44,554 nt of DNA from Spirochaetaceae bacterium (GTDB taxonomy: Bacteria; Actinomycetota; Actinomycetes; JACCUZ01): contig JAJAYQ010000051.1 of the NCBI GenBank assembly GCA_026786145.1, positions 1 to 44,554 of the forward strand, read 5' to 3'. Position 1 is the stretch's first letter; every line of letters begins with the position of its first letter. The notes beneath the pieces were generated by a model, which ran no database searches, was not told the DNA's origin, and saw nothing but the letters and a program-made list of their open reading frames with translations. Positions 2,812-25,569 of the stretch are shown here, piece after piece. A program made the position numbers and the translations under genes.

Positions 2812-2814
2812 CCC

Positions 2815-3387
2815 TCAGGGAGAGGGGTAGGGCGGTGGCAGCGGACCGGCGCTGCCGGCCGCCGCGCAGGGCACCAGCTCGTCCCGCAGCCGACGCAACG
2901 AGGCGACGAAGGGAGCGAGGCCGGCGCCCTCGGCGTCCACCGGGCCGCGCAGCGGGCCCACCAACCAGGTCTCGATGAGGTCCAGGTGGCCCGGCAGGGC
3001 CGCGGCGAGGCGGTCCCGGCCGGCGTCGCTGATCACGGCGTACGTCGTGCGGCGGTCGGTCGAGCAGGCCTGGCGGGCGACCAGCCCCCGGTCCACGAGT
3101 CGGTCCACCACCCGGGTCACCCCGCTGGTGGTGAGCGAGGTCTGGCCGGAGAGGTCGGTCATCCGCAGCAGCCCCATCGGCGAGCGGGCGAGGCGGATCA
3201 TCACCTCGAACTCCACCGGCGAGAGCCCGTGCTCGGCCAGCTGCGTCGCGCTCCGGGCGGAGAGGCCCGACCAGGTCTCGGCCAGCAGCCCCATCACCGT
3301 CAGCCGGTCGTCGGAGACCGCCTCGGCTGCCTCGGGGACGCCCGTGCCGAGGAGTCCGGGGGCGGGGGAGGTGGGGGGCGTGTTCAC
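2815..3387 (-). CDS. MarR-family transcriptional regulator
   Basis: The C-terminal third of the 2815..4449 ORF carries a winged HTH: LSPVEFEVMIRLARSP.GLLRMTDLSGQTSLTTSGVTRVVDRLVDRGLVARQ.CSTDRRTTYAVI. GTG 3387 is in frame just before the AT-rich intergenic region. The start is uncertain (alternative ATG at MGLLAETW). Confidence 0.8.
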   Translation of the reverse strand: MNTPPTSPAPGLLGTGVPEAAEAVSDDRLTVMGLLAETWSGLSARSATQLAEHGLSPVEFEVMIRLARSPMGLLRMTDLSGQTSLTTSGVTRVVDRLVDRGLVARQACSTDRRTTYAVISDAGRDRLAAALPGHLDLIETWLVGPLRGPVDAEGAGLAPFVASLRRLRDELVPCAAAGSAGPLPPPYPSP

Positions 3388-4246: not shown

Positions 4247-5374
4247 ATGGCCATGACGGTGCGCGAGATCGACCGCGACGAGCACCTCTCCTTCGTGACC
4301 GAGCGCGCCGCGACAGCATCCGTGAGCTTCCTGCAGTGCCCGTCGTGGGCCCAGGTGAAGAGCGAGTGGGGCGCCCAGAGCCTGGGCTGGCACGACGGGG
4401 GCGGCTCCCTCGTGGGCGTCGGCCTGGTGCTGCTGCGCCAGGTGCCCAAGGTGAAGCGCTTCCTCGCCTACCTCCCCGAGGGCCCCGTGATCGACTGGTC
4501 GGCCGCGGACCTGGAGGAGTGGTTGCGCCCGATGGTCGGCCACCTGCGGGAGGCCGGTGCCTTCGGCGTCCGCATGGGTCCGCCGGTCGTGAGCCGGCGA
4601 TGGACGGCTGCCACCATCAAGGCGGCGATCGCGGGCGGCGCGGGCGGGCGGCTCGGCGACGTGCCGCCGGACGAGACGGACCCGGTGGCCGACTCGGTGT
4701 CGGCGACGCTGACCCGGCTGGGCTGGCGGGCACCGGCGGGGGACGAGGGCTTCTCGACCGGGCAGCCACGGTACGTCTTCCAGGTGCCCGTCCACGGGCG
4801 TACCGGCGACGAGGTGCTCGCGGGGTTCAACCAGCTCTGGCGCCGCAACGTCAAGAAGGCGGCGAAAGCCGGCGTCGAGGTGACCCAGGGGACCGAGGCG
4901 GACCTGCCTGCATTCCACCAGCTCTACCTGGAGACCGCGGCCCGGGACCACTTCACCGGCCGGCCACTGGCGTACTTCCAGCGGATGTGGTCCGCGATGC
5001 GCGCCGAGGACCCCGACCGGATCCGGCTCTACCTGGCGCACCACGAGGGCGACCTGGTCGCCGCGACCACGATGGTCCGGGTCGGCCGGCACGCCTGGTA
5101 CTCCTACGGGGCGTCCTCGACGGCCAAGCGCGACGTACGCGGATCCAACGCGGTCCAGTGGCAGATGCTGCGCGAGGCGGCCGAGTCGGGCGCCGCGGTC
5201 TACGACCTGCGCGGCATCACCGACACCCTCGCCGAGGACGACCCGCACTTCGGGTTGATCCAGTTCAAGCTGGGCACCGGCGGTGAGGCGGTGGAGTACC
5301 TGGGGGAGTGGGACCTGCCGCTGAACCGCCTGCTGTTCAAGGCTTTCGAGGTCTACATGGACCGGCGCGGATAA
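4247..5374 (+). CDS. FemAB/FemX-family peptidoglycan interpeptide-bridge aminoacyltransferase
   Basis: The 375-aa ORF has the family hallmarks SFLQ...WAQVK..WG, NQLWRRNVKKA.K.GVEV, YLETA.RD.F, WYSYGASS...R...SNAVQW.M. and YDLRGI. Confidence 0.85.
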   Translation: MAMTVREIDRDEHLSFVTERAATASVSFLQCPSWAQVKSEWGAQSLGWHDGGGSLVGVGLVLLRQVPKVKRFLAYLPEGPVIDWSAADLEEWLRPMVGHLREAGAFGVRMGPPVVSRRWTAATIKAAIAGGAGGRLGDVPPDETDPVADSVSATLTRLGWRAPAGDEGFSTGQPRYVFQVPVHGRTGDEVLAGFNQLWRRNVKKAAKAGVEVTQGTEADLPAFHQLYLETAARDHFTGRPLAYFQRMWSAMRAEDPDRIRLYLAHHEGDLVAATTMVRVGRHAWYSYGASSTAKRDVRGSNAVQWQMLREAAESGAAVYDLRGITDTLAEDDPHFGLIQFKLGTGGEAVEYLGEWDLPLNRLLFKAFEVYMDRRG

Positions 5375-5381
5375 TGACCCC

Positions 5382-6437
5382 ATGACGTTCACGCTGTACG
5401 TCGACGAAGACCGCTGGCGCGCTCACCTGCGTTCGGTGGTCGAGACGATGCCGGGCATCGTGCCCGTCATCAAGGGCAACGGGTACGGCCTCGGGCTGGC
5501 CCGGCTCGCGCAGGAGGCCGCCGCCCTCGGTGTCGAGGCCGTGACCGTCGGCACCACCGAAGAGCTGCCGGTCGTGCGCGACGCGTTCGGTGGTGACGTC
5601 CTCGTGCTGACCCCGGCCTACCCGCGGCCCGACGAGGACCCGACCGGTCGCGTGGTGCAGACCGTCGCCCACCTCGAGACCCTGCGGGCCGCCACCGGTT
5701 CGCGGGTGGTGCTCGAGTCGATGACAACGATGCGACGTCACGGCCTGACCGTGGACTCGGTTCCGCAGCTGGCCGGGCTGCTCCCCGGCGTACGGCTGGA
5801 GGGCCTCGCGTTCCACCTCCCGATCGACCGGCACGGCGGCTACGACCCCGCCGCCGAGGTCACCGAATGGCTGCGGCGGCTGGGTGCGGCCGGGGTGCCG
5901 ACGGAGACGGCCTGGGTGAGCCACCTGCAGGCCGCGGAGCTGACGGGGCTGCGGGCGCAGTTCCCTGGGACGACGTTCCGGCCGCGCGTCGGCACATCGC
6001 TCTGGCTCGGTGACCGGGGGGCGCTGACCGCGCGGGGCACCGTGCTCGACGTGCACCCGCTGGCGCGGGGTGAGCACTACGGCTACCGCCGCCACCGGAC
6101 GTTGCGCAAGAGCCATCTCGTCGTCGTCTCCGGTGGCACCGCGCACGGCGTCGCCCTCGAGGCGCCGCGGTCGGTGCGCGGACCGGTCGGGCGGGCGAAG
6201 GCCGTGGCGGTCGGGACGCTGGCCGCGGCCAACCGGTCGCTGAGCCCGTTCACCTGGGCCGGCCGCCAGCGCTGGTTCGCCGAGCCGCCGCACATGCACG
6301 TGTCGCTGCTGCTCCTGCCGGCATCTGTCACCCCGCCGAGGATCGGCGACGAGCTGGACTGCGAGGTCCGCCTCACCACCATCCACCCCGACACCCTCAC
6401 CCCCACCCGCAATCGACCACGTACAGCAGGTGGGTGA
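5382..6437 (+). CDS. alanine-racemase-fold (PLP-dependent) protein
   Basis: PVIKGNGYGLG resembles the Alr PLP-lysine motif (V.KANAYGHG). Also present are GLAFHLP, GEHYGYRR and VVSGGTAHGV, resembling Alr C-terminal motifs. The gene lies 8 bp after the FemX-like gene. The last ~9 codons lie inside the left inverted repeat. Confidence 0.7.
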   Translation: MTFTLYVDEDRWRAHLRSVVETMPGIVPVIKGNGYGLGLARLAQEAAALGVEAVTVGTTEELPVVRDAFGGDVLVLTPAYPRPDEDPTGRVVQTVAHLETLRAATGSRVVLESMTTMRRHGLTVDSVPQLAGLLPGVRLEGLAFHLPIDRHGGYDPAAEVTEWLRRLGAAGVPTETAWVSHLQAAELTGLRAQFPGTTFRPRVGTSLWLGDRGALTARGTVLDVHPLARGEHYGYRRHRTLRKSHLVVVSGGTAHGVALEAPRSVRGPVGRAKAVAVGTLAAANRSLSPFTWAGRQRWFAEPPHMHVSLLLLPASVTPPRIGDELDCEVRLTTIHPDTLTPTRNRPRTAGG

Positions 6438-6453
6438 TCGCCGCGGCAGGTGT
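6409..6453. repeat. left arm of 45-bp imperfect inverted repeat (40/45 with 7621-7665)
   Basis: gcaatcgaccacgtacagcaggtgggtgatcgccgcggcaggtgt. It contains the stop codon (6435-6437) of the Alr-like gene. Confidence 0.9.
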
Positions 6454-6542
6454 GTGCGCCTGCTGACGCGAGCACACGCCTCGTGTGGTCGGCCTGTGGA
6501 TGGCGCCAGGCCCTGCGGTCGTCGTGCTGGCAGGCTCGTCCC

Positions 6543-7523
6543 GTGCCCTACGCACCGTTCCTCGCCCCGGAGCTGCTGGCCCTCGCAGCCACCCAGCGTG
6601 GCGTCTTCACCGCCGCACAGGCCCGCGCGGTCGGCCACACACAGAACGACCTGCAGCGGCTGCGGCGGCACAAGTACATCGTGTCGGTGCGACGTGGCGT
6701 CTATGCCCTACGCAAGACGTACGTGGTGGTGGACGCGGCCAAACGGCACGGCATGCAGGTGGCCGCCCTTGGCCTGGTGCTGACGCCGCCCGCCACCCTG
6801 AGCCACGAGTCCGCCGCCGGAGAGCTCGGGCTCGAGCTGCTGGAACCCGACCTGTCGCTGCTACACGTCACGCGCGCGGATGACGCCGGTACTCGGGTGG
6901 AGGCCGGTGTCAAACACCATTGCGCCGAGGTCCCCGAGAGTCATCTCGTACGCCGGGAGGGCGAACTCGACCTGACCACCCTGGCCCGTGCCGCTATCGA
7001 CATCGCTCGCGAGGCGGTCCGGCTCGAGTGTGCTGTCGCCGCGATCGACTCCGCTCTTCGCCTCGGTGTCACGAGAGACGAGCTAGCCGCGGTCATGCTG
7101 CGCTGCCGCAGTTGGCGTGGGGCGCGGATCGCGAGCCGAGCGCTCTCGCTCGCGGACGGTCGCGCGGCGAACCCGGGTGAGTCGTGGTCACGCGTCGTGC
7201 TGATCCAGCAGGGGCTCCCGCCGACCGGCCTGCAGGTGCCGGTGTACGACGACGACGGGTTGATCGGCTACGCGGACTTCGGCTGGGACGGCGTACTCGG
7301 CGAGCTGGACGGCAAGGGCAAGTACGGCATCGGCGTCGACACCGACCCCGAGGAGGCCGCGCGGATCGTGTGGCGCGAGAAGCGGAGGGAGGACCGTCTG
7401 CGCGCCCTGGGGAACGAGGTCGTCCGCTGGACCTACGCCGAGCATCACCGGCCGCAGGTCATCGCGGCGCGAGTGATCGCCGCCCAGGCCCGGGCCGCCG
7501 AGCGGCGACAGTGGTCCGGCTGA
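6543..7523 (+). CDS. AbiEi_4-like wHTH N-domain fused to DUF559/PD-(D/E)xK-like C-domain protein (orphan, no AbiEii partner)
   Basis: The N-terminus PFLAPELLALAATQRGVFTAAQARAVGHTQNDLQRLRRHKYIVSVRRGVYA is typical of AbiEi-type antitoxin domains. The C-terminus has YADFGWDGVLGELDGKGKY, a D...E.D.K nuclease-like motif. The start is uncertain (GTG 6543 chosen; the track ORF starts at 6450 inside the repeat). Confidence 0.7.
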   Translation: MPYAPFLAPELLALAATQRGVFTAAQARAVGHTQNDLQRLRRHKYIVSVRRGVYALRKTYVVVDAAKRHGMQVAALGLVLTPPATLSHESAAGELGLELLEPDLSLLHVTRADDAGTRVEAGVKHHCAEVPESHLVRREGELDLTTLARAAIDIAREAVRLECAVAAIDSALRLGVTRDELAAVMLRCRSWRGARIASRALSLADGRAANPGESWSRVVLIQQGLPPTGLQVPVYDDDGLIGYADFGWDGVLGELDGKGKYGIGVDTDPEEAARIVWREKRREDRLRALGNEVVRWTYAEHHRPQVIAARVIAAQARAAERRQWSG

Positions 7524-7620
7524 GACTCGCAGCAGGCGATCGCGAGAGACTCGACCGCGCATGAACTTGCCGTCGACCAACCGCGCGTCGCGGGGCCTGT
7601 GATCGCCTCACCAGGTGTGT

Positions 7621-7665
7621 ACGCCTGCCGCAGCGATCACCCGCCTCCCGTACGTGGTCGATTGC
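7621..7665. repeat. right arm of 45-bp imperfect inverted repeat
   Basis: The reverse complement reads gcaatcgaccacgtacgggaggcgggtgatcgctgcggcaggcgt. It contains the stop codon (7637-7639) of the GT87 gene. Confidence 0.9.
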
Positions 7666-9127
7666 GCAAAGGGAGGGGGTGGGCGTCGGGGGCGTGGTCG
7701 AGGACGCCGCCGGCGGGGTCGTCGACGGGGTAGGGGGTCAAGGTGCGGGCGGGCTCCTGGACGGTGGCGATCCAGGGGGATGCACCGTCGGGTGCGGCGC
7801 GGACAGGGTCCTGCTCCGGACGCAGGACGTCGCGGACGACCACTGCGCACAGCCAGAGCGTCCCGGCAACGTGGGCGAGGACCGTCGCGCCGTAGCCGTC
7901 CTCGCCCAGCGCCCGGTCCGGGTTCCCCGGCGGGTAACCGGCGATCAGCATCCAGGTCCCGACGAAGTGCACGACCTCCGCGGCCTGCCAGATCAGGAAG
8001 TCCCGCCACCGGGGCCTGGCCAGCGCCGCGAGCGGCAGCAGCCACAGCGCGTACTGCGGGGAGTAGACCTTGTTGGTCAGCACGAATGCGGCCACGACGA
8101 GGAACACGAGCTGGGGCAGCCGCGGCCTGCGCTCGGCGCGCAGCCCCAGCACCGCCACCCCGACGCAGGCCAGGGCGAACAGCCCGCCGGACACGACGTT
8201 GAGCGCCCCCTCCGGCACCGAGTAGCCCTGCTGGCTCAGGACGAACCACACCGAGCCGAAGCCCGCGCCGCGATCCTCGGAGAGCCGGTAGAAGCGGGCC
8301 CAGCCGTCGACGTCGACGAGCATCACCGGGACGTTCACCACCGTCCAGGCGCCGACGGCAGCAACCAGCGCCGCCCAGAACTCCCGCATCCGCCCGGCCC
8401 GCCAGCAGAGCACCAGCAGCGGTCCCAGGACGAAGAGCGGGTAGAACTTCGTCGCGGCCGCCAGCCCGATCAGGACCCCGGCCGCCACCGGTCTCGCGCG
8501 GGCCCAGGCCAGCATGCCCAGGGCGAGCAACGCCACGGCATACAGGTCCCAGTTGATCGTCCCTGACAGGGCGAGGACCGGCGCGAGCGCGAACAAGGCG
8601 GCGTCCCACGGCCGGCGACCCGCTGTCCGTGCCGTCGCGGCGACCGCGATCGCGGCGCAGAGGGCCAGCGCCAGGGCGTTGATGTCGAAGTAGCGGAGGG
8701 TGCGAGCGCTGGCGTCCCCCGGGTCCGCGGAGCTGCCAACGGCTTGAGCGGTCAGCCACATGGCGGCACCGGTGAGGACGGGGTACTCCACCCGCCGGTC
8801 GCCCACCTGGTCGATGTAGGGCACCTCGCCGTCGGCGAGCCCGCGGCCGAAGTACAGCGGGGGGATGTCGCTGTAGCAGGAGTGCACGTAGACACCCGGT
8901 GCCCCCCACCCCGTGTCGCGGCAAAACTCCTTCTGCACCAACCCGATCCCGCAGGTCAGGAAGGTCAGCGCGAGCAGCACCCGCAACGGGGTCCACCAGC
9001 TGGTGCCGGTGCGGGCGTGGCGGCCCAGTGGCCCGCCGAGTGCCTCACTCCCGAGGTGTACGACGGGGTCGTCCCTCGACGGTGCCACGACACCACCCGG
9101 TTCGCGCCCCCGCTCGACGGAGGTCAC
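7637..9127 (-). CDS. polytopic membrane glycosyltransferase, GT87/DUF2029 family (Mtb Rv0051-like by synteny with ponA)
   Basis: The protein has many TM helices (LRVLLALTFLTCGIGLV, AATKFYPLFVLGPLLVLCW, LVFLVVAAFVLTNKVYSPQY.LWLLPL). In-frame GTG 9127 lies 4 nt after the PBP stop. The upstream Arg/Pro-rich 98 codons overlap ponA and were rejected. Confidence 0.75.
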   Translation of the reverse strand: MTSVERGREPGGVVAPSRDDPVVHLGSEALGGPLGRHARTGTSWWTPLRVLLALTFLTCGIGLVQKEFCRDTGWGAPGVYVHSCYSDIPPLYFGRGLADGEVPYIDQVGDRRVEYPVLTGAAMWLTAQAVGSSADPGDASARTLRYFDINALALALCAAIAVAATARTAGRRPWDAALFALAPVLALSGTINWDLYAVALLALGMLAWARARPVAAGVLIGLAAATKFYPLFVLGPLLVLCWRAGRMREFWAALVAAVGAWTVVNVPVMLVDVDGWARFYRLSEDRGAGFGSVWFVLSQQGYSVPEGALNVVSGGLFALACVGVAVLGLRAERRPRLPQLVFLVVAAFVLTNKVYSPQYALWLLPLAALARPRWRDFLIWQAAEVVHFVGTWMLIAGYPPGNPDRALGEDGYGATVLAHVAGTLWLCAVVVRDVLRPEQDPVRAAPDGASPWIATVQEPARTLTPYPVDDPAGGVLDHAPDAHPLPLRNRPRTGGG

Positions 9128-9131
9128 CGGG

Positions 9132-11321
9132 TCAGCCGACGCCTGGCGAGATGGTGACGTCCTGCGGCGGCGGGGTCGACTCGGTCGGTGCCGGGACCGG
9201 GGTCTCCGTCGGAGTGACCGACGGGGTCGGCACGACCACGGTCTCGGTGGGCGTCGGCGACTCGGACTCGCTCGGTGACGGCTCGGGTGCCGGGTTGATG
9301 GTGTCGCCGACGTCGGCCCGCGGCGGGAAGTCCTGGACCTCTTTGCCCTCCATGGCTCCCAGCATGAATGCCGTCCAGATCCGGGCGGGGTACTCGCCGC
9401 CGAAGAACGTCGAGAGGCCACCCACCCCGTCGAGGTCGGCCCTGCCGGTTCCCTTGTAGAAGCTGACCGCCGCCGAGAGCTGTGGGGTGTAGCCGACGAA
9501 CCAGGCCGACGTCACTGTATCGGGGCGCAGCGCCGCGGTCCCCGTCTTCCCGGCGGCGGGCCGGCCCAGCGCACGTGCCTCGGTGCCCGTCCCGCTCTGC
9601 ACGACCTGCTGGAGCGCATAGCTCAGGTCGGCCATCACGTCCTCGTCGAAGGCCTGTTCGGTGCCGGTGTCGGCCTTGTACCGGGTGCCGCCGTTGGCGC
9701 CCTTGACCTCCGCGACGACGTGCCATTTCGCCCGCTCGCCCTGTGCGGCGAACGTCGCGTAGGCATTGGCCATGTCGATGTTGCGCACCGACGCGGTGCC
9801 CAGCGGGATGACCGCGTTGGCCTCCAGTCCTGGCGTGTCCTCCGGGATGCCGGCCGCGATCGCTGACTCGCGCACCCGCTCCGGCCCCATCTCGAGAGTG
9901 AGGTCGACGTACGCCGTGTTGATGGACTCTCGCGTCGCCTGGATGAGGTCCACCGACGAGCCGTAGTCGTTGTCGAACTCGTTGCCGACAGTCGTGTCGG
10001 TGCCCGGCAGCTCCAGCGGCGAGTTGCCCTGGAACGTGCTGCGCAGACCGATCCCGTCCTCCAGCGCACCGGCCAGGGCGAACGGCTTGAACGAGGAGCC
10101 CGGCTGGATCGCGGCCTGGGTCGCCTCGTTGAGCTGGCCGGCCTCCGGCCCGCCGTACATCGCGATGACGGCGCCGGTGCCGGGCTCGACCGCCGAGAGC
10201 CCGATGTGCACGTTGCGGGCGTTCTCGGTCGGACGCTCCTCCCGCACCGCCCGGACGGCCGCGCGCTGGGACCTGCGGTCGAAGGTGCTGGTGACGCGCA
10301 GGCCGCCGAGGTCGATGTCGCGGTCGGTGAACCCCTGCGCCCTGAGCTCGCGGCGCACCGTGTCCATCAGGTAGTAGCTGGGCCCGCCGCGCGGCTTGCC
10401 GGGCTCGGCGGTCTGCGGGACGGTCATCCCCGCGCGCTCGCCCGCCGCCAGCCAGTCGTTGGTGACCATGCCGTCCAGGACGTAGTCGAAGCGGCCCTGC
10501 AGCCGGTCGGCGTCCTCGTCGGGGTCATAGTTGGCCGGCGAGCGGATCACCGAGGCGAGCACCGCGCCCTCCTCGACAGTGAGCTCCGACGCGGGCTTGT
10601 CGAAGTAGGTCGAAGCGGCGGTCTCGATCCCGTAGGCGCCGCGACCGAAGTAGATGGTGTTCAGGTAGTCGGCCAGGATCGTGTCCTTGTCATCGCGGCG
10701 GGCGAGCTTCACCGAGATGAGGAACTCCTTGAACTTGCGGGTGTACGTCCGCTCCTGGGAGAGGTAGGCGTTCTTCGCGTACTGCTGGGTGATCGTCGAG
10801 CCGCCCTGGATCGAGCCGCCGCGCAGGTTGCTCCAGAAGGCGCGGGCGATGCCGGTCGGCGAGATGCCGCGGTTCTCGTAGAACGACCGGTCCTCGGCGG
10901 CGAGCACGGCCTTCTGCACGTGCTCCGGGACCTGGTCGAGCGGGACGATGATGCGGTTCTGCTCACCGAACCGGCCGATCTCGGCCTTGCCGTTGTCGAA
11001 GTAGACGATCGTCGTCTGCGCGCTGACGAGCTCGTTCGGCGTCGGGATGGGCGTCGCGGCGTACGCCACTCCGACCAGCAGGACCACGGCCACGAACCCC
11101 CCGAGCGCCAGTGCCAGGAGCTGGCGGAACGACGGCAGGTAGCGGCGGACGCCGTCGTAGTTCTCGCGCGGGTAGTCGACTCTCAACGTCAGCGTCCGTA
11201 GGTCGGGGGCGGGATGGTGAGGCGACAGCCTAACGACCAGCCCCGGACCGCGGTGCCGCCACGGCCGGGGCATCACCGGGTCGCTGGACTTGCACACATC
11301 GAAAGCGGCGCCTATCGTCAC
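9132..11321 (-). CDS. ponA: class A penicillin-binding protein (glycosyltransferase GT51 + transpeptidase)
   Basis: GT51 motifs AAEDRSFYENRGISP and GGSTITQQYAKN are present, followed by the transpeptidase SxxK (PGSSFKP), then KTGT and a Pro/Thr-rich tail. The start is uncertain (GTG 11321 or ATG 11273). Confidence 0.9.
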   Translation of the reverse strand: MTIGAAFDVCKSSDPVMPRPWRHRGPGLVVRLSPHHPAPDLRTLTLRVDYPRENYDGVRRYLPSFRQLLALALGGFVAVVLLVGVAYAATPIPTPNELVSAQTTIVYFDNGKAEIGRFGEQNRIIVPLDQVPEHVQKAVLAAEDRSFYENRGISPTGIARAFWSNLRGGSIQGGSTITQQYAKNAYLSQERTYTRKFKEFLISVKLARRDDKDTILADYLNTIYFGRGAYGIETAASTYFDKPASELTVEEGAVLASVIRSPANYDPDEDADRLQGRFDYVLDGMVTNDWLAAGERAGMTVPQTAEPGKPRGGPSYYLMDTVRRELRAQGFTDRDIDLGGLRVTSTFDRRSQRAAVRAVREERPTENARNVHIGLSAVEPGTGAVIAMYGGPEAGQLNEATQAAIQPGSSFKPFALAGALEDGIGLRSTFQGNSPLELPGTDTTVGNEFDNDYGSSVDLIQATRESINTAYVDLTLEMGPERVRESAIAAGIPEDTPGLEANAVIPLGTASVRNIDMANAYATFAAQGERAKWHVVAEVKGANGGTRYKADTGTEQAFDEDVMADLSYALQQVVQSGTGTEARALGRPAAGKTGTAALRPDTVTSAWFVGYTPQLSAAVSFYKGTGRADLDGVGGLSTFFGGEYPARIWTAFMLGAMEGKEVQDFPPRADVGDTINPAPEPSPSESESPTPTETVVVPTPSVTPTETPVPAPTESTPPPQDVTISPGVG

Positions 11322-13391: not shown

Positions 13392-14786
13392 GTGATGTCG
13401 TACGCCGGGGACCTGCGAGCGGTCCTGCGGCACCGCAACTTCCGGCGGCTCTTCGCGACCCGGCTGACCTCGCAGGCCGCCGACGGCGCGTTCCAGGCGG
13501 CGCTCGCGAGCCTGTTCTTCTTCTCTCCCGAACGTCAGACCTCAGCCGGTAGCGTCGCCACGGCCTTCGCCGTGCTGCTGCTGCCGTACTCGGTGGTCGG
13601 CCCGTTCGCCGGCGTCCTGCTCGACCGCTGGCGCCGGCGGCAGATCCTCGTCATCGCCAACCTCCTGCGGACGGCGATGGTGCTGGGCGTCGCGGGCATG
13701 ACCTTCGCGGACGTCGTGGGAGTCCCCCTCTACACGGCGGTGCTGGCCTGCCTGTCGGTCAACCGCTTCTTCCTCGCCGGCCTCTCGGCGGCACTGCCGC
13801 ACGTTGTGACCCGCGACGAGCTGGTGATGGCCAACTCGGTGTCGACGACGACCGGCACGATCGTCGCGATCACTGGTGGAGGTGTCGGCTTCCTGCTCAA
13901 GGGGCTCTTCGGCGGGGGGTCGGGCGCCGACGGAGGGGTGATCGTGGTGGCCGCGGCGGCGTACGCCCTCGCCGCGGCGCTGGCCGCGCGCATGGACCGC
14001 GACCTGCTCGGCCCCGACCTCGACGAGGAGGGTCCGGAGACCCGCGAAGCCGTACGCCGGGTGGCGTACGGACTGGTCGACGGTGCCCGACACGTGTGGT
14101 CCCACCGACCCGCCGCGTACGCCCTCACGGCCATCGGCGCGCACCGGTTCTTCTACGGCGTCTCGACCATCTCGGCGATCCTGCTGTTCCGCAGCTACTT
14201 CAACGATCCCGACGACGTAGACGCCGGCCTCGCCGGGCTTGCCAGCGCGTTCGCGGCCTCGGGCGCCGGCTTCCTGCTGGCCGCCGTGATCACGCCTTGG
14301 GTGACGCACCGCATCTCCAAGCAGCGCTGGATCGCCGCCTGCTTCGCCTTCGCCGCTGCGGCCGAGGCGGTGTACATCTTCTGGCTCTCCGAGTGGCTGC
14401 TGCTGGCCGGTGCGTTCGTCGTGGGGGTGGCCGCGCAGGGCTCCAAGATCTGCGTCGACACCATCGTGCAGGAGTCGGTCGACGATGCCTACCGCGGCCG
14501 TGTCTTCTCGTTCTACGACGTCATCTTCAACATCGCGTTCGTCTCGGCCGCGGCGTTCGGTGCACTGGCGCTGCCGGCCGACGGCAACTCACCGGCCGTG
14601 TACGCCGTGATCGCCGTCGGCTACGGCCTGACCGCCGCGACGTACGCCTTCGCCACCTCCCGCCTCACCCCGTACGGGAATCGGAGCAGGGGGGTCAGCT
14701 CGGGGTCCGGGTGGACCACCAGCGGCGCAGCTCGGCCTCCGCATCCTCGGCCGACAGAGGGCCCTGCTCCATCCGGACCTCCTTGA
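13392..14786 (+). CDS. MFS transporter
   Basis: The 464-aa protein has about 12 hydrophobic segments, with an N-terminal RNFRRLF....TSQ..DG and the loop motif LLDRWRRRQILV. Its 3' end overlaps the convergent cca by 92 nt. Confidence 0.8.
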   Translation: MMSYAGDLRAVLRHRNFRRLFATRLTSQAADGAFQAALASLFFFSPERQTSAGSVATAFAVLLLPYSVVGPFAGVLLDRWRRRQILVIANLLRTAMVLGVAGMTFADVVGVPLYTAVLACLSVNRFFLAGLSAALPHVVTRDELVMANSVSTTTGTIVAITGGGVGFLLKGLFGGGSGADGGVIVVAAAAYALAAALAARMDRDLLGPDLDEEGPETREAVRRVAYGLVDGARHVWSHRPAAYALTAIGAHRFFYGVSTISAILLFRSYFNDPDDVDAGLAGLASAFAASGAGFLLAAVITPWVTHRISKQRWIAACFAFAAAAEAVYIFWLSEWLLLAGAFVVGVAAQGSKICVDTIVQESVDDAYRGRVFSFYDVIFNIAFVSAAAFGALALPADGNSPAVYAVIAVGYGLTAATYAFATSRLTPYGNRSRGVSSGSGWTTSGAARPPHPRPTEGPAPSGPP

Positions 14787-24585: not shown

Positions 24586-25569
24586 GTGGACGACGTACGC
24601 AACGTGATCGTGATCGGCTCAGGACCGGCCGGTTACACCGCAGCCATCTATGCCGCGCGCGCCGACCTCGCGCCGCTGGTCTTCGAGGGATCGGTGACCG
24701 CCGGTGGGGCGCTGATGAACACCACCGACGTCGAGAACTTCCCCGGCTTTCCCGACGGTGTCATGGGCCCCGACCTGATGGACCACCTGCGCAAGCAGGC
24801 CGAGCGGTTCGGCGCCGAGCTCGTCACCGACGACGTGACCGCGGTGGACCTCACCGGCGAGGTGAAGGTCGTCACCGACGGTGCGGGGGTCGAGCACCGC
24901 GCGTTCTCGGTCATCATCGCCACCGGCTCCGGCTATCGCGAGCTGGGCCTGCCCAAGGAGAAGAAGCTCTCCGGCCGCGGTGTCTCCTGGTGCGCGACCT
25001 GCGACGGCTTCTTCTTCCGCGACCAGGACATCGCCGTCGTCGGGGGAGGTGACACCGCGATGGAGGAGGCGACGTTCCTCACTCGCTTCGCGCGCTCGGT
25101 GACGATCGTGCACCGCCGCGGCTCGCTGCGGGCATCGAAGATCATGCAGGAGCGGGCGTTCACCAACGAGAAGATCCGCTTCCTCTGGAACACCGAGGTC
25201 ACCGACATCGAGGGCGAGGACAAGGTCGCCGGCCTGACGCTGCGCGACACCGTCACCGGTGTGGGGTCTCGGCTCGACGTGACCGGGCTGTTCGTCGCGA
25301 TCGGCCACGACCCCCGGAGTGAGCTGTTCGAGCACCAGGTCCGCCGCGACGACGAGGGATACGTCCTCGTCGACGCGCCGTCAACGCGCACCAACCTGGT
25401 CGGTGTCTTCGCCTGCGGCGACGTCGTCGACCACGTCTACCGGCAGGCCGTCACAGCAGCCGGCACCGGGTGCGCGGCCGCCTTGGACGCGGAGCGCTAC
25501 CTCGCCGGTCTCGAGGACGCCCTCATCACCGGCAACCCCGCCCAGGCCGTCCAGTCGAGCGTCGGCTGA
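24586..25569 (+). CDS. trxB: thioredoxin-disulfide reductase
   Basis: [20 protein letters not shown] (FAD GxGxxG), the redox CATCDG, the NADPH-site [15 protein letters not shown] and GVFACGDV are present. GTG 24586 was chosen (the track start 24553 is possible). Confidence 0.93.

What the first reader, a model, noticed from the sequence alone, without database searches (positions are those of the whole stretch)
6409..7665. AbiEi-wHTH / PD-(D/E)xK-like gene bracketed by a 45-bp inverted repeat that also writes the C-termini of both convergent neighbours
Seen: the left arm at 6409-6453 is gcaatcgaccacgtacagcaggtgggtgatcgccgcggcaggtgt. The reverse complement of 7621-7665 is gcaatcgaccacgtacgggaggcgggtgatcgctgcggcaggcgt. 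They are 40/45 identical. The stop codons of the Alr-like gene (6435-6437, + strand) and of the GT87 gene (7637-7639, - strand) sit at the equivalent position of the two arms. Both unrelated proteins therefore end with the same peptide, ...RNRPRT(A/G)GG. The 1.17 kb between the arms carries a single ORF with an AbiEi-type N-terminal wHTH and a C-terminal D...E.D.K nuclease-like motif (YADFGWDGVLGELDGKGKY). No AbiEii toxin, transposase or recombinase is present. Inference: there are three possible explanations. The cassette may have inserted into the centre of a pre-existing long palindrome, such as a bidirectional terminator between convergent genes. The segment may be a non-autonomous mobile or invertible unit mobilised in trans. 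Or the nuclease-like cargo may itself be a homing-type selfish gene. This is one of the few clearly non-backbone insertions in an otherwise deeply conserved region.
Basis: partly seen in the sequence, partly recalled or inferred. Interest (0 to 1): 0.65.

Follow-up and report, generated by a model that had tools for sequence, protein, structure and literature searches.

The report
Nuclease gene cassette with hairpin ends
A single gene for a DNA-binding nuclease sits between two mirror-image hairpin repeats. The same layout surrounds distant relatives of this gene in other Actinomycetota, and the repeat also occurs alone elsewhere, so this is probably an undescribed kind of small mobile DNA element rather than an orphan antitoxin gene.

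Summary
The inverted repeat is 76 nt long (6408-6483 / 7591-7666, 82%). Each arm is itself an ~85-nt hairpin with a conserved outer motif, GCAA-TCGACCACGTA.

The gene between the arms (6543-7523) encodes an AbiEi-type winged-helix domain plus a Vsr/DUF559-type nuclease (AlphaFold pLDDT 95.6).

Close relatives either carry this arm-gene-arm cassette at the same Alr/GT87 site, in either orientation, or have the two genes directly convergent. Some empty sites hold an 18-24-bp mini-palindrome made of the two outer half-motifs.

Cassette phylogeny disagrees with that of the flanking genes. Arm type follows the nuclease lineage, not the host.

Complete ~84-nt copies of the arm occur alone at other loci in related genomes, and these solo copies show presence/absence differences between genomes.

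Five of five distant family members (35-38% identity), each at an unrelated locus, are also bracketed by 48-89-nt hairpin inverted repeats.

The shared RNRPRTxGG tails are a lineage-specific by-product of both host genes reading into the arms.

Best reading: a selfish nuclease cassette with REPIN/MITE-like derivatives. The mechanism is inferred, not shown.

The parts
5382..6437 (+). Alr-like host gene (Ala_racemase_N domain). Its last 25-29 nt, including the stop at 6435-6437, lie inside the left arm, which supplies the tail RNRPRTAGG.
   Evidence: ORF and translation. Pfam PF01168. Orthologues at empty sites end before this tail.
6408..6493 (.). Left arm: an ~85-nt imperfect hairpin element. 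The inverted-repeat arm is 6408-6483. The inner end, 6476-6493, is a decayed reverse copy of the outer motif.
   Evidence: the repeat finder I1. Fold -52.7 kcal/mol, z = -2.6. Covariance model R1 scores 77.2 bits on + and 42.3 bits on -.
6409..6430 (+). Outer terminal motif GCAATCGACCACGTACAGCAGG. The core TCGACCACGT(A/T) is invariant in the canonical arms and solo elements (variants in L129: GTGACCATGT / ATGACCATGT). The next 7 nt form the base of the hairpin stem.
   Evidence: Alignments. Exactly two copies, facing inward, in every locus that holds both arms; L006 holds one. Six short-read assemblies begin exactly at 6413.
6493..6542 (+). Cargo upstream region with a conserved CCTGTGGA box (6493-6500) about 45 nt before the start codon. 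It is a candidate promoter or operator element (inferred).
   Evidence: Alignment of 7 loci. No sigma-70 consensus match.
6543..7523 (+). Cargo gene, 326 aa. Residues ~10-190 are AbiEi-like (winged helix-turn-helix plus the AbiEi core domain). Residues ~210-300 are a Vsr/DUF559-type PD-(D/E)xK nuclease with family-conserved residues: invariant E213, E254, G257, R282; in at least 90% of members D245, D256, K260, Y261, E279, K280, E283.
   Evidence: Pfam AbiEi_4. PADLOC AbiEi, E = 6.5e-21. AlphaFold pLDDT 95.6. Foldseek hits 6y8q, 1zel, 3r3p, 1vsr. Conserved columns. DUF559 or MTES_1575 hits in 10 of 99 family members.
7575..7666 (.). Right arm: an inverted copy of the hairpin element. The inverted-repeat arm is 7591-7666.
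   Evidence: Fold -48.3 kcal/mol, z = -2.5. R1 scores 76.8 bits on - and 39 bits on +.
7644..7665 (-). Outer terminal motif of the right arm: GCAATCGACCACGTACGGGAGG on the - strand.
7637..9421 (-). GT87 glycosyltransferase host gene. Its last 29 nt, including the stop at 7637-7639, lie inside the right arm, which supplies the tail RNRPRTGGG.

Best explanation
Window 6408-7666 is a discrete, horizontally mobile gene cassette. It consists of one gene for a site-specific nuclease and two inverted copies of an ~85-nt hairpin-forming terminal element. The nuclease combines an AbiEi-type winged-helix DNA binder with a Vsr/DUF559-type PD-(D/E)xK catalytic domain.

The cassette belongs to a large family of such cassettes in Actinomycetota that I could not find described. 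Their genes are currently annotated as orphan AbiEi antitoxins, DUF559 proteins or hypothetical proteins.

Shown:
- The cassette is present or absent at one and the same intergenic site among close relatives, and it occurs in both orientations.
- Its phylogeny conflicts with that of the flanking genes.
- Arm sequence type tracks the nuclease lineage.
- Complete palindromic ~84-nt versions of the arm occur alone at other loci and are themselves gained or lost between related genomes.
- Distant paralogues at unrelated loci have the same bracket.

Inferred:
- The winged-helix part recognises the conserved terminal motif (core GAC/TCACGT).
- The Vsr-like domain cuts there or at the palindromic junction of two half-motifs. 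That junction is the mini-palindrome seen in some empty alleles.
- Break repair then copies the cassette into empty alleles, as in homing. Occasionally the cassette or its gene-less derivatives seed new sites.
- The arms end up against, or across, the stop codons of neighbouring genes. This is why both convergent host proteins here acquire the same 9-residue tail.
For: Anatomy:
- The inverted repeat is 76 nt at 82%, and each arm is a hairpin.
- The 18-nt motif occurs exactly twice, facing inward, in every locus that holds both arms; L006 holds one.

Protein:
- The AlphaFold model has pLDDT 95.6.
- Foldseek finds AbiEi 6y8q (E = 3.8e-6) and Rv2827c 1zel (E = 6.5e-5) for the N-terminal two thirds.
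- For the C-terminal domain it finds the I-Bth0305I homing-endonuclease catalytic domain 3r3p (probability 0.95, TM-score 0.60) and Vsr 1vsr (probability 0.92).
- DUF559 or MTES_1575 Pfam hits occur in 10 of 99 family members.
- Acidic and lysine residues are invariant.

Mobility at this locus:
- Empty sites occur in close relatives.
- Filled and empty sites interleave on the Alr tree; the window is sister to the empty L133.
- L004 versus L129/L131: flanks 83-92% identical (Alr, GT87, PBP; FemAB 75-90%), cargo only 50-55%.
- L151 versus L141: Alr 94%, cargo 67%, with different arm types.
- L151 versus L146: Alr 78%, cargo 89%, with the same arm type.
- Empty sites L142 and L135/138/139 carry the solo mini-palindromes GTTGACCACGTA|TACGTGGTCAAC and GATCACGTA|TACGTGATC.

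Solo copies:
- About 20 complete or half elements were found in 9 uncultured Actinomycetota genomes. They score at least 60 bits against at most 34 bits for chance motif hits.
- None is next to a family gene.
- In MAG JBOGDX the cassette arms and two solo elements share genome-specific interior sequence.
- Solo elements are present or absent at orthologous sites: L014 versus window 14667-14713, L145 versus window 2814-2854, and L077 versus L125 (flanks 95% identical).

Generality:
- Five of five distant members tested are bracketed by 48-89-nt inverted repeats. They are P0260, P0279, P0336 and P0272, at 35-38% identity, on loci L213, L214, L215, L218 and L219.
- The L218 arm begins GGAATGACCACGTCCAGCAGG.
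- Control: 12 of 13 such inverted-repeat pairs in 1.43 Mb bracket a family gene.

Precedent:
- I-Bth0305I is a homodimeric Vsr-fold homing enzyme. Its specificity centres on a 14-bp pseudopalindrome (PMC3239194).
- AbiEi and Rv2827c bind 23-bp inverted repeats (PMC7319586).
Against: - No nuclease activity, DNA binding, excision or insertion has been observed. The mechanism rests entirely on comparative anatomy.
- A PD-(D/E)xK nuclease alone cannot perform strand transfer, so spread to new loci needs host repair or another factor.
- No target-site duplication is visible.
- In the L131, L129 and L213 cassette types, both ends carry an intact mini-palindrome rather than half of one. This does not fit a simple model in which insertion splits the target.
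- Several empty sites (L126, L133, L140, L175) have no palindrome at all.
- Co-occurrence of cassette and solo elements within one genome is documented for only one MAG (JBOGDX), plus one contig (L145).
- The window itself (44.5 kb) contains no solo copy.
- Cargo GC content and GC3 match the host, so any transfer is among relatives.
- Neither the cassette nor true elements were found on viral contigs, and plasmid hits were few, so no vector is known.
Confidence: 0.6

Rival explanations
1. A domesticated REPIN/RAYT-like system. The gene is a resident, single-copy, essentially vertically inherited host gene. Its product acts in trans on the dispersed ~84-nt palindromic elements, either replicating or excising them or using them for a host function such as transcript-end formation between convergent genes. 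The two flanking arms are simply the copies it keeps next to itself, and the cassette as such does not move.
For: The layout matches the published description of RAYTs: typically flanked by REPINs, each associated with its own repeat type, single copy, and with excision leaving long symmetric palindromes (PMC3337134). The same locus is occupied across cargo divergence down to 58% identity. One solo element is conserved at orthologous sites in two genomes, L072 and L099. Cargo composition is host-like.
Against: The enzyme is not an HUH/Y1 transposase. Cassette phylogeny conflicts with the flanks, and different cassette lineages sit in near-identical hosts. Clean empty sites occur in the closest relatives. 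Distant paralogues occupy unrelated loci, including the inside of the gap-pgk-tpi-secG cluster, which implies that the gene itself relocates.
Confidence: 0.22
2. An ordinary autoregulated DNA-binding protein, or a stand-alone defence nuclease such as a winged-helix-nuclease type IV restriction enzyme. The flanking hairpins would be its operator on the upstream side and transcription terminators or RNA stabilisers for the convergent neighbours. Patchy distribution would reflect gene loss.
For: AbiEi-family proteins repress their own promoters through inverted repeats (PMC7319586). The hairpins lie directly after stop codons, and the interior stems show compensatory changes (11 of 19 pairs). A conserved box lies between the arm and the start codon. 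Winged-helix-nuclease fusions acting as restriction enzymes are known (PMC11037411, listed).
Against: This does not explain an equally conserved arm downstream of the gene. It does not explain solo copies at unrelated loci with no family gene nearby. It does not explain lineage-specific co-variation of arm type with the protein across different host backgrounds, nor the same bracket at five unrelated loci. No U-tract terminators were found.
Confidence: 0.1
3. A programmed invertible segment. Recombination between the two arms flips the gene, so that it is read from either the Alr operon or the PBP-GT87 operon.
For: Both orientations exist among relatives. The cargo is co-oriented with Alr in the window, L148 and L004/5. 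It is co-oriented with GT87 in L001, L003, L129, L131, L137, L141, L143, L146 and L151. DUF559 proteins are 14-fold enriched among predicted programmed-inversion targets (PMC9881135).
Against: No recombinase lies in or beside the cassette. Orientation is constant within the three cassette lineages represented by more than one locus and differs only between deep lineages. The arms are only 73-93% alike. Insertion into a symmetric target would give both orientations without any inversion.
Confidence: 0.05
4. The gene inserted into the centre of a pre-existing long palindrome (a bidirectional terminator) between Alr and GT87, and the arms are the two halves of that palindrome.
For: The site lies between convergent genes. 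Some empty alleles have a short palindrome there.
Against: Each arm holds a complete stem-loop plus a decayed inner motif, not half a hairpin. No empty allele has a long palindrome. The same arms occur at unrelated loci.
Confidence: 0.03

Closest known systems
REPIN-RAYT systems (REP-associated tyrosine transposases with REP doublets)
   Same: A single gene is flanked by inverted copies of a hairpin-forming palindromic repeat. The same repeat is dispersed as short gene-less elements just downstream of genes. Repeat type co-varies with the enzyme lineage. Symmetric short palindromes occur where the interior is missing (PMC3337134).
   Different: The enzyme here is an AbiEi-type winged helix plus a Vsr-like PD-(D/E)xK nuclease, not an HUH/Y1 transposase. 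There is no GTAG/CGTC REP head. The cassette itself is patchy and phylogenetically incongruent with its host. The copy number of solo elements appears low, though it was not measured genome-wide.
Free-standing and intron-borne homing endonuclease genes of the Vsr-like EDxHD family (I-Bth0305I)
   Same: The catalytic fold is the same (Foldseek 3r3p, probability 0.95). The architecture is multidomain, with a separate DNA-binding part. The precedent enzyme targets a pseudopalindrome centred on the cut (PMC3239194). Presence/absence at one conserved site between conserved genes, with empty alleles, matches homing.
   Different: Here the gene is in bacterial chromosomes rather than in phage introns or inteins. 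It carries long hairpin terminal repeats, which homing genes lack. It has gene-less derivatives at other loci. The histidine of the DUF559 E-x-D-G-x-x-H motif is replaced by lysine/tyrosine (GE-x-DGK-x-KY).
AbiEi antitoxin of type IV AbiE toxin-antitoxin systems (S. agalactiae AbiEi, M. tuberculosis Rv2827c)
   Same: The N-terminal wHTH and the following core domain match by sequence (Pfam AbiEi_4, PADLOC AbiEi) and by fold (6y8q, 1zel). The known members bind inverted repeats.
   Different: There is no AbiEii/DUF1814 toxin partner here or in any of the relatives' loci with gene calls. An extra C-terminal nuclease domain is present. The repeats flank the whole gene instead of sitting only in its promoter.
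MITEs and their parent insertion sequences (for example Correia, Nezha)
   Same: The solo elements are ~84 nt with near-perfect 18-22-nt terminal inverted repeats and a hairpin interior. They differ in presence between related genomes, and a longer version carries a gene.
   Different: No target-site duplication was seen. No DDE, serine or tyrosine transposase is present. The parent element appears to occur once per locus lineage rather than as multiple identical copies.
pdif modules of Acinetobacter plasmids (genes bracketed by inverted Xer sites)
   Same: Small single-gene modules are bracketed by inverted recombination-type sites and are found in either orientation.
   Different: The motif here bears no resemblance to the 11-6-11 layout of dif sites. 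The cassette encodes its own nuclease. This comparison rests on my own knowledge of pdif modules and was not tested.

Membership tests
AbiE type IV toxin-antitoxin system (AbiEi antitoxin) | N-terminal AbiEi-type winged helix-turn-helix plus the AbiEi core domain | tested here: met
   Pfam AbiEi_4, E = 6e-8. PADLOC AbiEi, E = 6.5e-21 over residues 10-182. Foldseek 6y8q E = 3.8e-6 and 1zel E = 6.5e-5.
AbiE type IV toxin-antitoxin system (AbiEi antitoxin) | Adjacent AbiEii (DUF1814 nucleotidyltransferase) toxin gene in a bicistronic operon | tested here: not met
   The neighbours are the Alr-like and GT87 genes. No DUF1814 gene is called in any related locus or in the distant members' loci with gene calls.
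Vsr / DUF559 PD-(D/E)xK endonucleases | Vsr-like alpha/beta nuclease fold | tested here: met
   Foldseek 3r3p (probability 0.95, target TM-score 0.60), 1vsr (probability 0.92) and 3hrl listed. Pfam DUF559 in 7 and MTES_1575 in 3 of 99 family members.
Vsr / DUF559 PD-(D/E)xK endonucleases | Conserved catalytic acidic residues and Lys/His (D...E-x-D-G-x-x-H/K) | tested here: inconclusive
   D245, E254, D256, K260, E279, K280 and E283 are invariant or nearly so across 99 diverse members. They fall on the predicted beta-strands and helix. The mapping onto Vsr active-site positions was not checked in 3D.
Vsr / DUF559 PD-(D/E)xK endonucleases | DNA cleavage activity | not testable with these tools
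   Needs purified protein.
Homing endonuclease gene (free-standing) | Presence/absence polymorphism at one conserved site, with phylogeny incongruent to the host | tested here: met
Homing endonuclease gene (free-standing) | Recognition site intact in the empty allele and disrupted by the insertion | tested here: inconclusive
   L142 and L135/138/139 have a mini-palindrome equal to the two outer half-motifs joined. Other empty sites lack it, and the L131, L129 and L213 cassettes keep intact mini-palindromes at both ends.
Homing endonuclease gene (free-standing) | Enzyme cuts the empty allele and the gene is copied in by repair | not testable with these tools
   Needs an experiment.
REPIN-RAYT system | HUH/Y1 (IS200-like) transposase | tested here: not met
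   No such domain by Pfam, NCBIfam or fold search.
REPIN-RAYT system | Gene flanked by inverted palindromic repeats that are also dispersed in the same genome | tested here: met
   Arms. Solo elements in MAG JBOGDX share the arms' genome-specific interior. There is an extra element on the cassette contig L145. Genome-wide counts were not obtainable.
REPIN-RAYT system | Single-copy, vertically inherited gene | tested here: inconclusive
   There is one copy in the window and the locus is conserved. However, the phylogeny is incongruent and empty sites exist. Copy number per genome was not measurable.
TIR transposon / MITE | Terminal inverted repeats | tested here: met
TIR transposon / MITE | Target-site duplication and a known transposase class | tested here: not met
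   No direct duplication was seen at the cassette or solo-element borders (sequences). There is no DDE, serine, tyrosine or HUH domain.
Programmed invertible element | Site-specific recombinase in or next to the segment | tested here: not met
   Only Alr, GT87, PBP and FemAB are nearby.
Intrinsic (rho-independent) terminator | GC-rich hairpin followed by a U-tract | tested here: not met
   0 terminator-like sites in 6300-7800. The hairpins lack a T-run.
Any Rfam RNA family | Match to a curated covariance model | tested here: not met
   Nothing at the arms at E <= 5; the only match (toga_FSE, E 0.78) lies at 9432-9455.

The most novel reading that the evidence does not exclude
AbiEi-wHTH/Vsr-nuclease genes with hairpin terminal repeats are a previously unrecognised class of autonomous mobile element in Actinomycetota. 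The family has thousands of 50%-identity clusters. In this reading the nuclease is the mobility enzyme, acting on a palindromic or hairpin target. The ~84-nt palindromic solo elements are its non-autonomous derivatives. Many genes annotated as orphan antitoxins or DUF559 proteins are therefore selfish elements.
Probability: 0.4. Interest if true: 0.88.

Novelty: new variant of a known kind. Interest (0 to 1): 0.78.

Why it matters
If correct, a protein family with more than 7,000 sequence clusters would be reinterpreted. It is now labelled AbiEi antitoxin domain-containing, DUF559 or hypothetical. It would instead be the enzyme of a small mobile cassette.

Actinomycetota would gain a REPIN/MITE-like repeat system driven by a restriction-fold nuclease rather than an HUH or DDE transposase.

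It would also explain why DUF559 genes were found enriched among predicted programmed-inversion targets (PMC9881135).

It shows how such elements rewrite the C-termini of neighbouring essential cell-wall genes.

The predicted long, palindromic, lineage-specific recognition sites make the enzymes directly testable, and they may be useful as rare cutters.

Tried and rejected
- Rfam scan of 5300-9500 at E <= 5: nothing at the arms.
- Sigma-70 promoter and U-tract terminator scan: none.
- NCBIfam on the cargo: no hit.
- Direct sequence search of the PDB: only noise.
- Single-sequence AlphaFold: unusable, pLDDT 39. It was redone with a 99-sequence alignment.
- Search of the window for further copies of the arm with a covariance model, filters off: only the two arms. 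The next hit scores 14.7 bits at 25423-25465 and is treated as noise.
- tblastn and a family HMM on all solo-element loci and on the 1-3 kb gaps between Alr and GT87 in distant relatives: no family gene there.
- Viral contigs: no cargo relative, and all 15 motif hits score at most 31 bits, so they are chance.
- Plasmids: five weak partial hits.
- Literature searches for DUF559+AbiEi, DUF559 and AbiEi_4 found no description of this arrangement.
- Most genome-scan motif hits (Streptomyces and others) are chance matches inside coding sequence.
- Target-site duplications were looked for at cassette and solo-element borders and not seen.
- Window versus L148 (99.1% nt identity) has too few differences (4 synonymous, 5 non-synonymous) to measure selection.
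- Linking the other eight solo-bearing MAGs to a cassette was not possible.

Full report
**1. The observation**

The sequence features are as described.
- Arms 6409-6453 and 7621-7665 (reverse complement) are 40/45 identical.
- Both flanking ORFs stop at the equivalent arm position, and both end in RNRPRT(A/G)GG.
- The 33-nt core occurs twice at 3 or fewer mismatches, against none in 100 shuffles.

The repeat is in fact longer: 76 nt, 6408-6483 / 7591-7666, 82% complementary. Each arm also matches the other in direct orientation over 49 nt. This is because each arm is itself an imperfect ~85-nt hairpin (6408-6493 and 7575-7666; -52.7 and -48.3 kcal/mol; z about -2.5).

**2. The cargo protein**

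The cargo ORF most likely starts at GTG 6543. That gives 326 aa, identical to database protein P0001.
- Pfam sees only AbiEi_4 at the N-terminus.
- PADLOC AbiEi models cover residues 10-190 (E = 6.5e-21).
- A single-sequence AlphaFold model was useless. With a 99-sequence alignment the model reached pLDDT 95.6 and pTM 0.91.
- Foldseek against the PDB returned AbiEi (6y8q, E = 3.8e-6) and M. tuberculosis Rv2827c (1zel, E = 6.5e-5) for the N-terminal two thirds.
- For the C-terminal ~100 residues it returned the catalytic domain of the homing endonuclease I-Bth0305I (3r3p, probability 0.95, target TM-score 0.60) and E. coli Vsr (1vsr, probability 0.92). A DUF559 protein (3hrl) was also listed.
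- Among 99 diverse relatives, 82 hit AbiEi_4, 7 hit DUF559 and 3 hit REase_MTES_1575.
- E213, E254, G257 and R282 are invariant. D245, D256, K260, Y261, E279, K280 and E283 are nearly so.

No AbiEii toxin gene lies in or beside the cassette in the window or in any related locus with gene calls.

**3. The locus in relatives**

Close homologues of the cargo (55-87% identity) are numerous. All those looked up lie between the Alr-like and GT87 genes.

All are bracketed by inverted repeats: 80 nt at 83%, 118 nt at 73%, 67 nt at 81%, 84 nt at 76%, 62 nt at 84% and 78 nt at 86%.

Orientation varies.
- The cargo is co-oriented with Alr in the window, L148 and L004/5.
- It is co-oriented with GT87 in L001, L003, L129, L131/2, L137, L141, L143, L146 and L151.

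A scan of metagenome contigs with an Alr alignment gave 80 anchored loci. Among relatives with Alr at least 70% identical:
- Eight carry the cassette or an arm at the contig end.
- Eight of these loci, plus L126 from an earlier look-up, have Alr and GT87 directly convergent, 4-68 nt apart where the gap could be measured. These include L133, whose Alr is 86% identical to the window's. The L144 gap was not measured reliably.
- All relatives with Alr at or below 62% identity lack the cassette.

The arm covariance model hits only filled loci.

On an Alr tree, filled and empty sites interleave, and the window is sister to the empty L133.

Alr orthologues at empty sites end ...HPDRVAPLPA and similar. 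In L004 the arms are entirely intergenic. The shared RNRPRTxGG tail is therefore a lineage-specific by-product of both genes reading into the arms in the same frame.

**4. The cassette moves as a unit**

Pairwise identities show conflict between cargo and flanks.

| Pair | Flanks | Cargo |
|---|---|---|
| L004 vs L129/L131 | Alr 86%, GT87 83-85%, PBP 90-92% | 50-55% |
| L151 vs L141 | Alr 94% | 67% |
| L151 vs L146 | Alr 78% | 89% |

Arm type follows the cargo, not the host.
- L151 and L146 share arms of the form TCGACCACGTA-AAGCACG.
- L141 has the TGGCAGG type.
- L129 and L131 have a third type. There the outer end is a mini-palindrome (GTCGACCACGTttACGTGGTCGAC) followed by a different hairpin.

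The core TCGACCACGT(A/T) is invariant in the canonical arms and solo elements; L129 carries the variants GTGACCATGT and ATGACCATGT. The next 7 nt co-vary with the closing stem.

Orientation is constant within the three cassette lineages represented by more than one locus, so a frequent switch is not indicated.

**5. Footprints or targets at empty sites**

Two kinds of empty site carry a short palindrome directly after the Alr stop.
- L142 has a perfect 24-bp palindrome, GTTGACCACGTA|TACGTGGTCAAC.
- L135/138/139 have GATCACGTA|TACGTGATC.

These equal the two outer half-motifs of a cassette joined with everything between them removed. They may be excision footprints; REPIN excision is reported to leave such symmetric palindromes (PMC3337134). 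Alternatively they may be uncut targets.

Other empty sites (L126, L133, L140, L175) have nothing comparable.

**6. The arms are a dispersed repeat**

- About 20 of these are true elements. They score 60-86 bits with model R1, against at most 34 bits for chance hits in coding sequence.
- All true elements are in uncultured Actinomycetota or Actinomycetes MAGs.
- Fifteen are complete ~84-nt palindromes, of the form motif / ~48-nt hairpin / reverse motif.
- Four are half elements, like the cassette arms.
- Eleven of 19 consensus stem pairs show compensatory changes.
- They lie in intergenic DNA, usually within 10-30 nt of a stop codon or overlapping it (using a crude gene caller).
- None is next to a family gene.
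- Several genomes have more than one. MAG CAVSKC has at least six.
- In MAG JBOGDX, the cassette arms and two solo elements share genome-specific flank and interior sequence.

Solo elements are gained or lost between related genomes.
- The L014 element corresponds to an empty site in the window at 14667-14713.
- The L145 element corresponds to window ~2814-2854.
- L077 carries a second unit, of the AAGCACG type, that is absent from L125 although their flanks are 95% identical.
- By contrast, L072 and L099 keep an element at orthologous positions.

The window itself has no solo copy.

**7. The bracket is a family hallmark**

An exhaustive search found 7,247 50%-identity clusters related to the cargo at E <= 1e-3.

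Four members at 35-38% identity were looked up, yielding five loci (two for P0272). Each lies at a different, unrelated locus:
- between a peptidase and opp genes (P0260, locus L213);
- between tpi and secG inside the gap-pgk-tpi-secG cluster (P0279, L214);
- next to an oxidoreductase in NCBI genome assembly GCA_000720335.1 (P0336, L215);
- next to the ATP synthase operon (P0272, L218 and L219).

All five loci are bracketed by inverted repeats of 48-89 nt at 80-93%.

In L214 each arm is a near-perfect 89-nt hairpin. In L218 the arm begins GGAATGACCACGTCCAGCAGG, close to the window's GCAATCGACCACGTACAGCAGG.

In all four of these locus types an arm abuts or overlaps a neighbour's stop codon, as in the window.

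There are 13, and 12 of them bracket a family gene.

**8. Other checks**

- No Rfam family matches the arms.
- No sigma-70 promoter or U-tract terminator was found.
- There is no cargo relative or true element in viral contigs.
- Plasmid hits are few and weak.
- Cargo GC and GC3 match the host.
- A conserved CCTGTGGA box (6493-6500) lies ~45 nt upstream of the start codon in seven loci.
- Six independent short-read assemblies that encode the identical protein all begin exactly at window 6413, the first base of the motif. In a de Bruijn assembly this means the outer ~30 nt of the arm have more than one left-hand context in those samples. It hints at further copies or alternative junctions, and it places the element boundary at T6413. 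It is not proof.

**9. Interpretation**

The most economical reading is a selfish cassette.
- Its nuclease recognises the conserved terminal motif through its AbiEi-type winged helix. AbiEi and Rv2827c bind 23-bp inverted repeats (PMC7319586).
- Its Vsr-like domain then cuts. I-Bth0305I is a homodimeric Vsr-fold homing enzyme whose specificity centres on a 14-bp pseudopalindrome (PMC3239194).
- The cassette would spread into empty alleles by repair. It would leave or seed gene-less ~84-nt derivatives, as REPINs do with RAYTs.

Presence/absence, incongruence, co-variation of arm and protein, solo copies and the family-wide bracket are shown. Binding, cleavage and the mode of movement are inferred.

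Points that do not fit neatly:
- There is no target-site duplication.
- Some cassette types keep intact mini-palindromes at both ends.
- Some empty sites have no palindrome.
- Cassette and solo elements are documented together in only one genome.

The main rival is a domesticated REPIN/RAYT-like arrangement in which only the solo elements move. A plain regulator with operator and terminator hairpins, a programmed inversion switch, and insertion into a pre-existing palindrome are each contradicted by specific observations.

**10. Novelty**

I found no description of this arrangement in the searchable literature. The only trace is a table entry showing DUF559 proteins 14-fold enriched among predicted programmed-inversion targets (PMC9881135), which this bracket would explain.

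The logic resembles REPIN-RAYT and homing systems, but the enzyme class and the hairpin-ended cassette are new to both. I rate it a new variant of a known kind. There is a substantial chance that it is a distinct class of mobile element.

Noticed in passing
window 14667-14713: This short intergenic spacer between convergent genes is the orthologous position of a complete 84-nt solo element in MAG JBOGDX (L014 780-862). The window has no element there, only a 10-bp palindrome, CCCGTACGGG.
   Followed up: partly
window 2814-2854: This is the orthologous position of a solo element in metagenome contig L145 (729-804). It is empty in the window.
   Followed up: partly
L145 about 690-735: Three tandem copies of a ~14-nt unit (GACCCGCCGCAGTT) lie immediately before the solo element's terminal motif (GCAGTTGACCACGT). 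The element's 5' edge appears to have been reiterated.
   Followed up: no
L077 5436-5603 versus L125 873-966: Two adjacent elements of different lineage types (TGGCAGG type and AAGCACG type) lie in one genome. The second, ~70 nt long, is absent from a genome whose flanks are 95% identical. Two element lineages therefore coexist in one MAG.
   Followed up: partly
L235-L240 (Logan assemblies SRR352566xx), equivalent to window 6413: Six independent short-read contigs that encode the identical cargo protein all begin at exactly the first base of the terminal motif, yet read through the right arm into GT87. This suggests the left arm's outer ~30 nt have more than one left-hand context in those samples.
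   Followed up: partly
L214 2860-2914: Between the left arm and the family gene lie a G-run/C-run mini-hairpin (CCGCGGCGGGGGGGGG / CCCCCCCCCCCCGGGG), a masked N-run, and a third partial copy of the terminal motif (CCCGGGGTGATCATTCGGGAG).
   Followed up: no
window 6493-6500 and the equivalent position in L001, L003, L004, L129, L131, L148: A conserved CCTGTGGA(C/T) box lies just inside the upstream arm, about 45 nt before the cargo start codon. It could be a promoter or operator element.
   Followed up: partly
L009, L033, L037, L040 and about 30 other Streptomyces loci: The 18-nt motif also occurs, by coincidence, inside one conserved Streptomyces coding sequence (AGTGCAGCGACTGGCGGGCGTCGACCACGTACAGCAGGG...). 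These account for most non-element hits in the genome scan.
   Followed up: partly
L168, L170, L178 (2.5-3 kb) and L154, L171-L173, L208 (~1 kb) between Alr and GT87: More distant relatives have other, unrelated insertions at the same Alr/GT87 junction. None encodes a family member. The junction seems to be a general insertion hot spot.
   Followed up: partly
window 6434-6441 and 7633-7640; L213 and L214 terminal motifs: GATC sites are embedded in the arm stems (GTGATCGC) of the window lineage and in the terminal motifs of some distant cassettes (CGATCACG, TGATCACG). Any link to methylation sensing was not examined.
   Followed up: no
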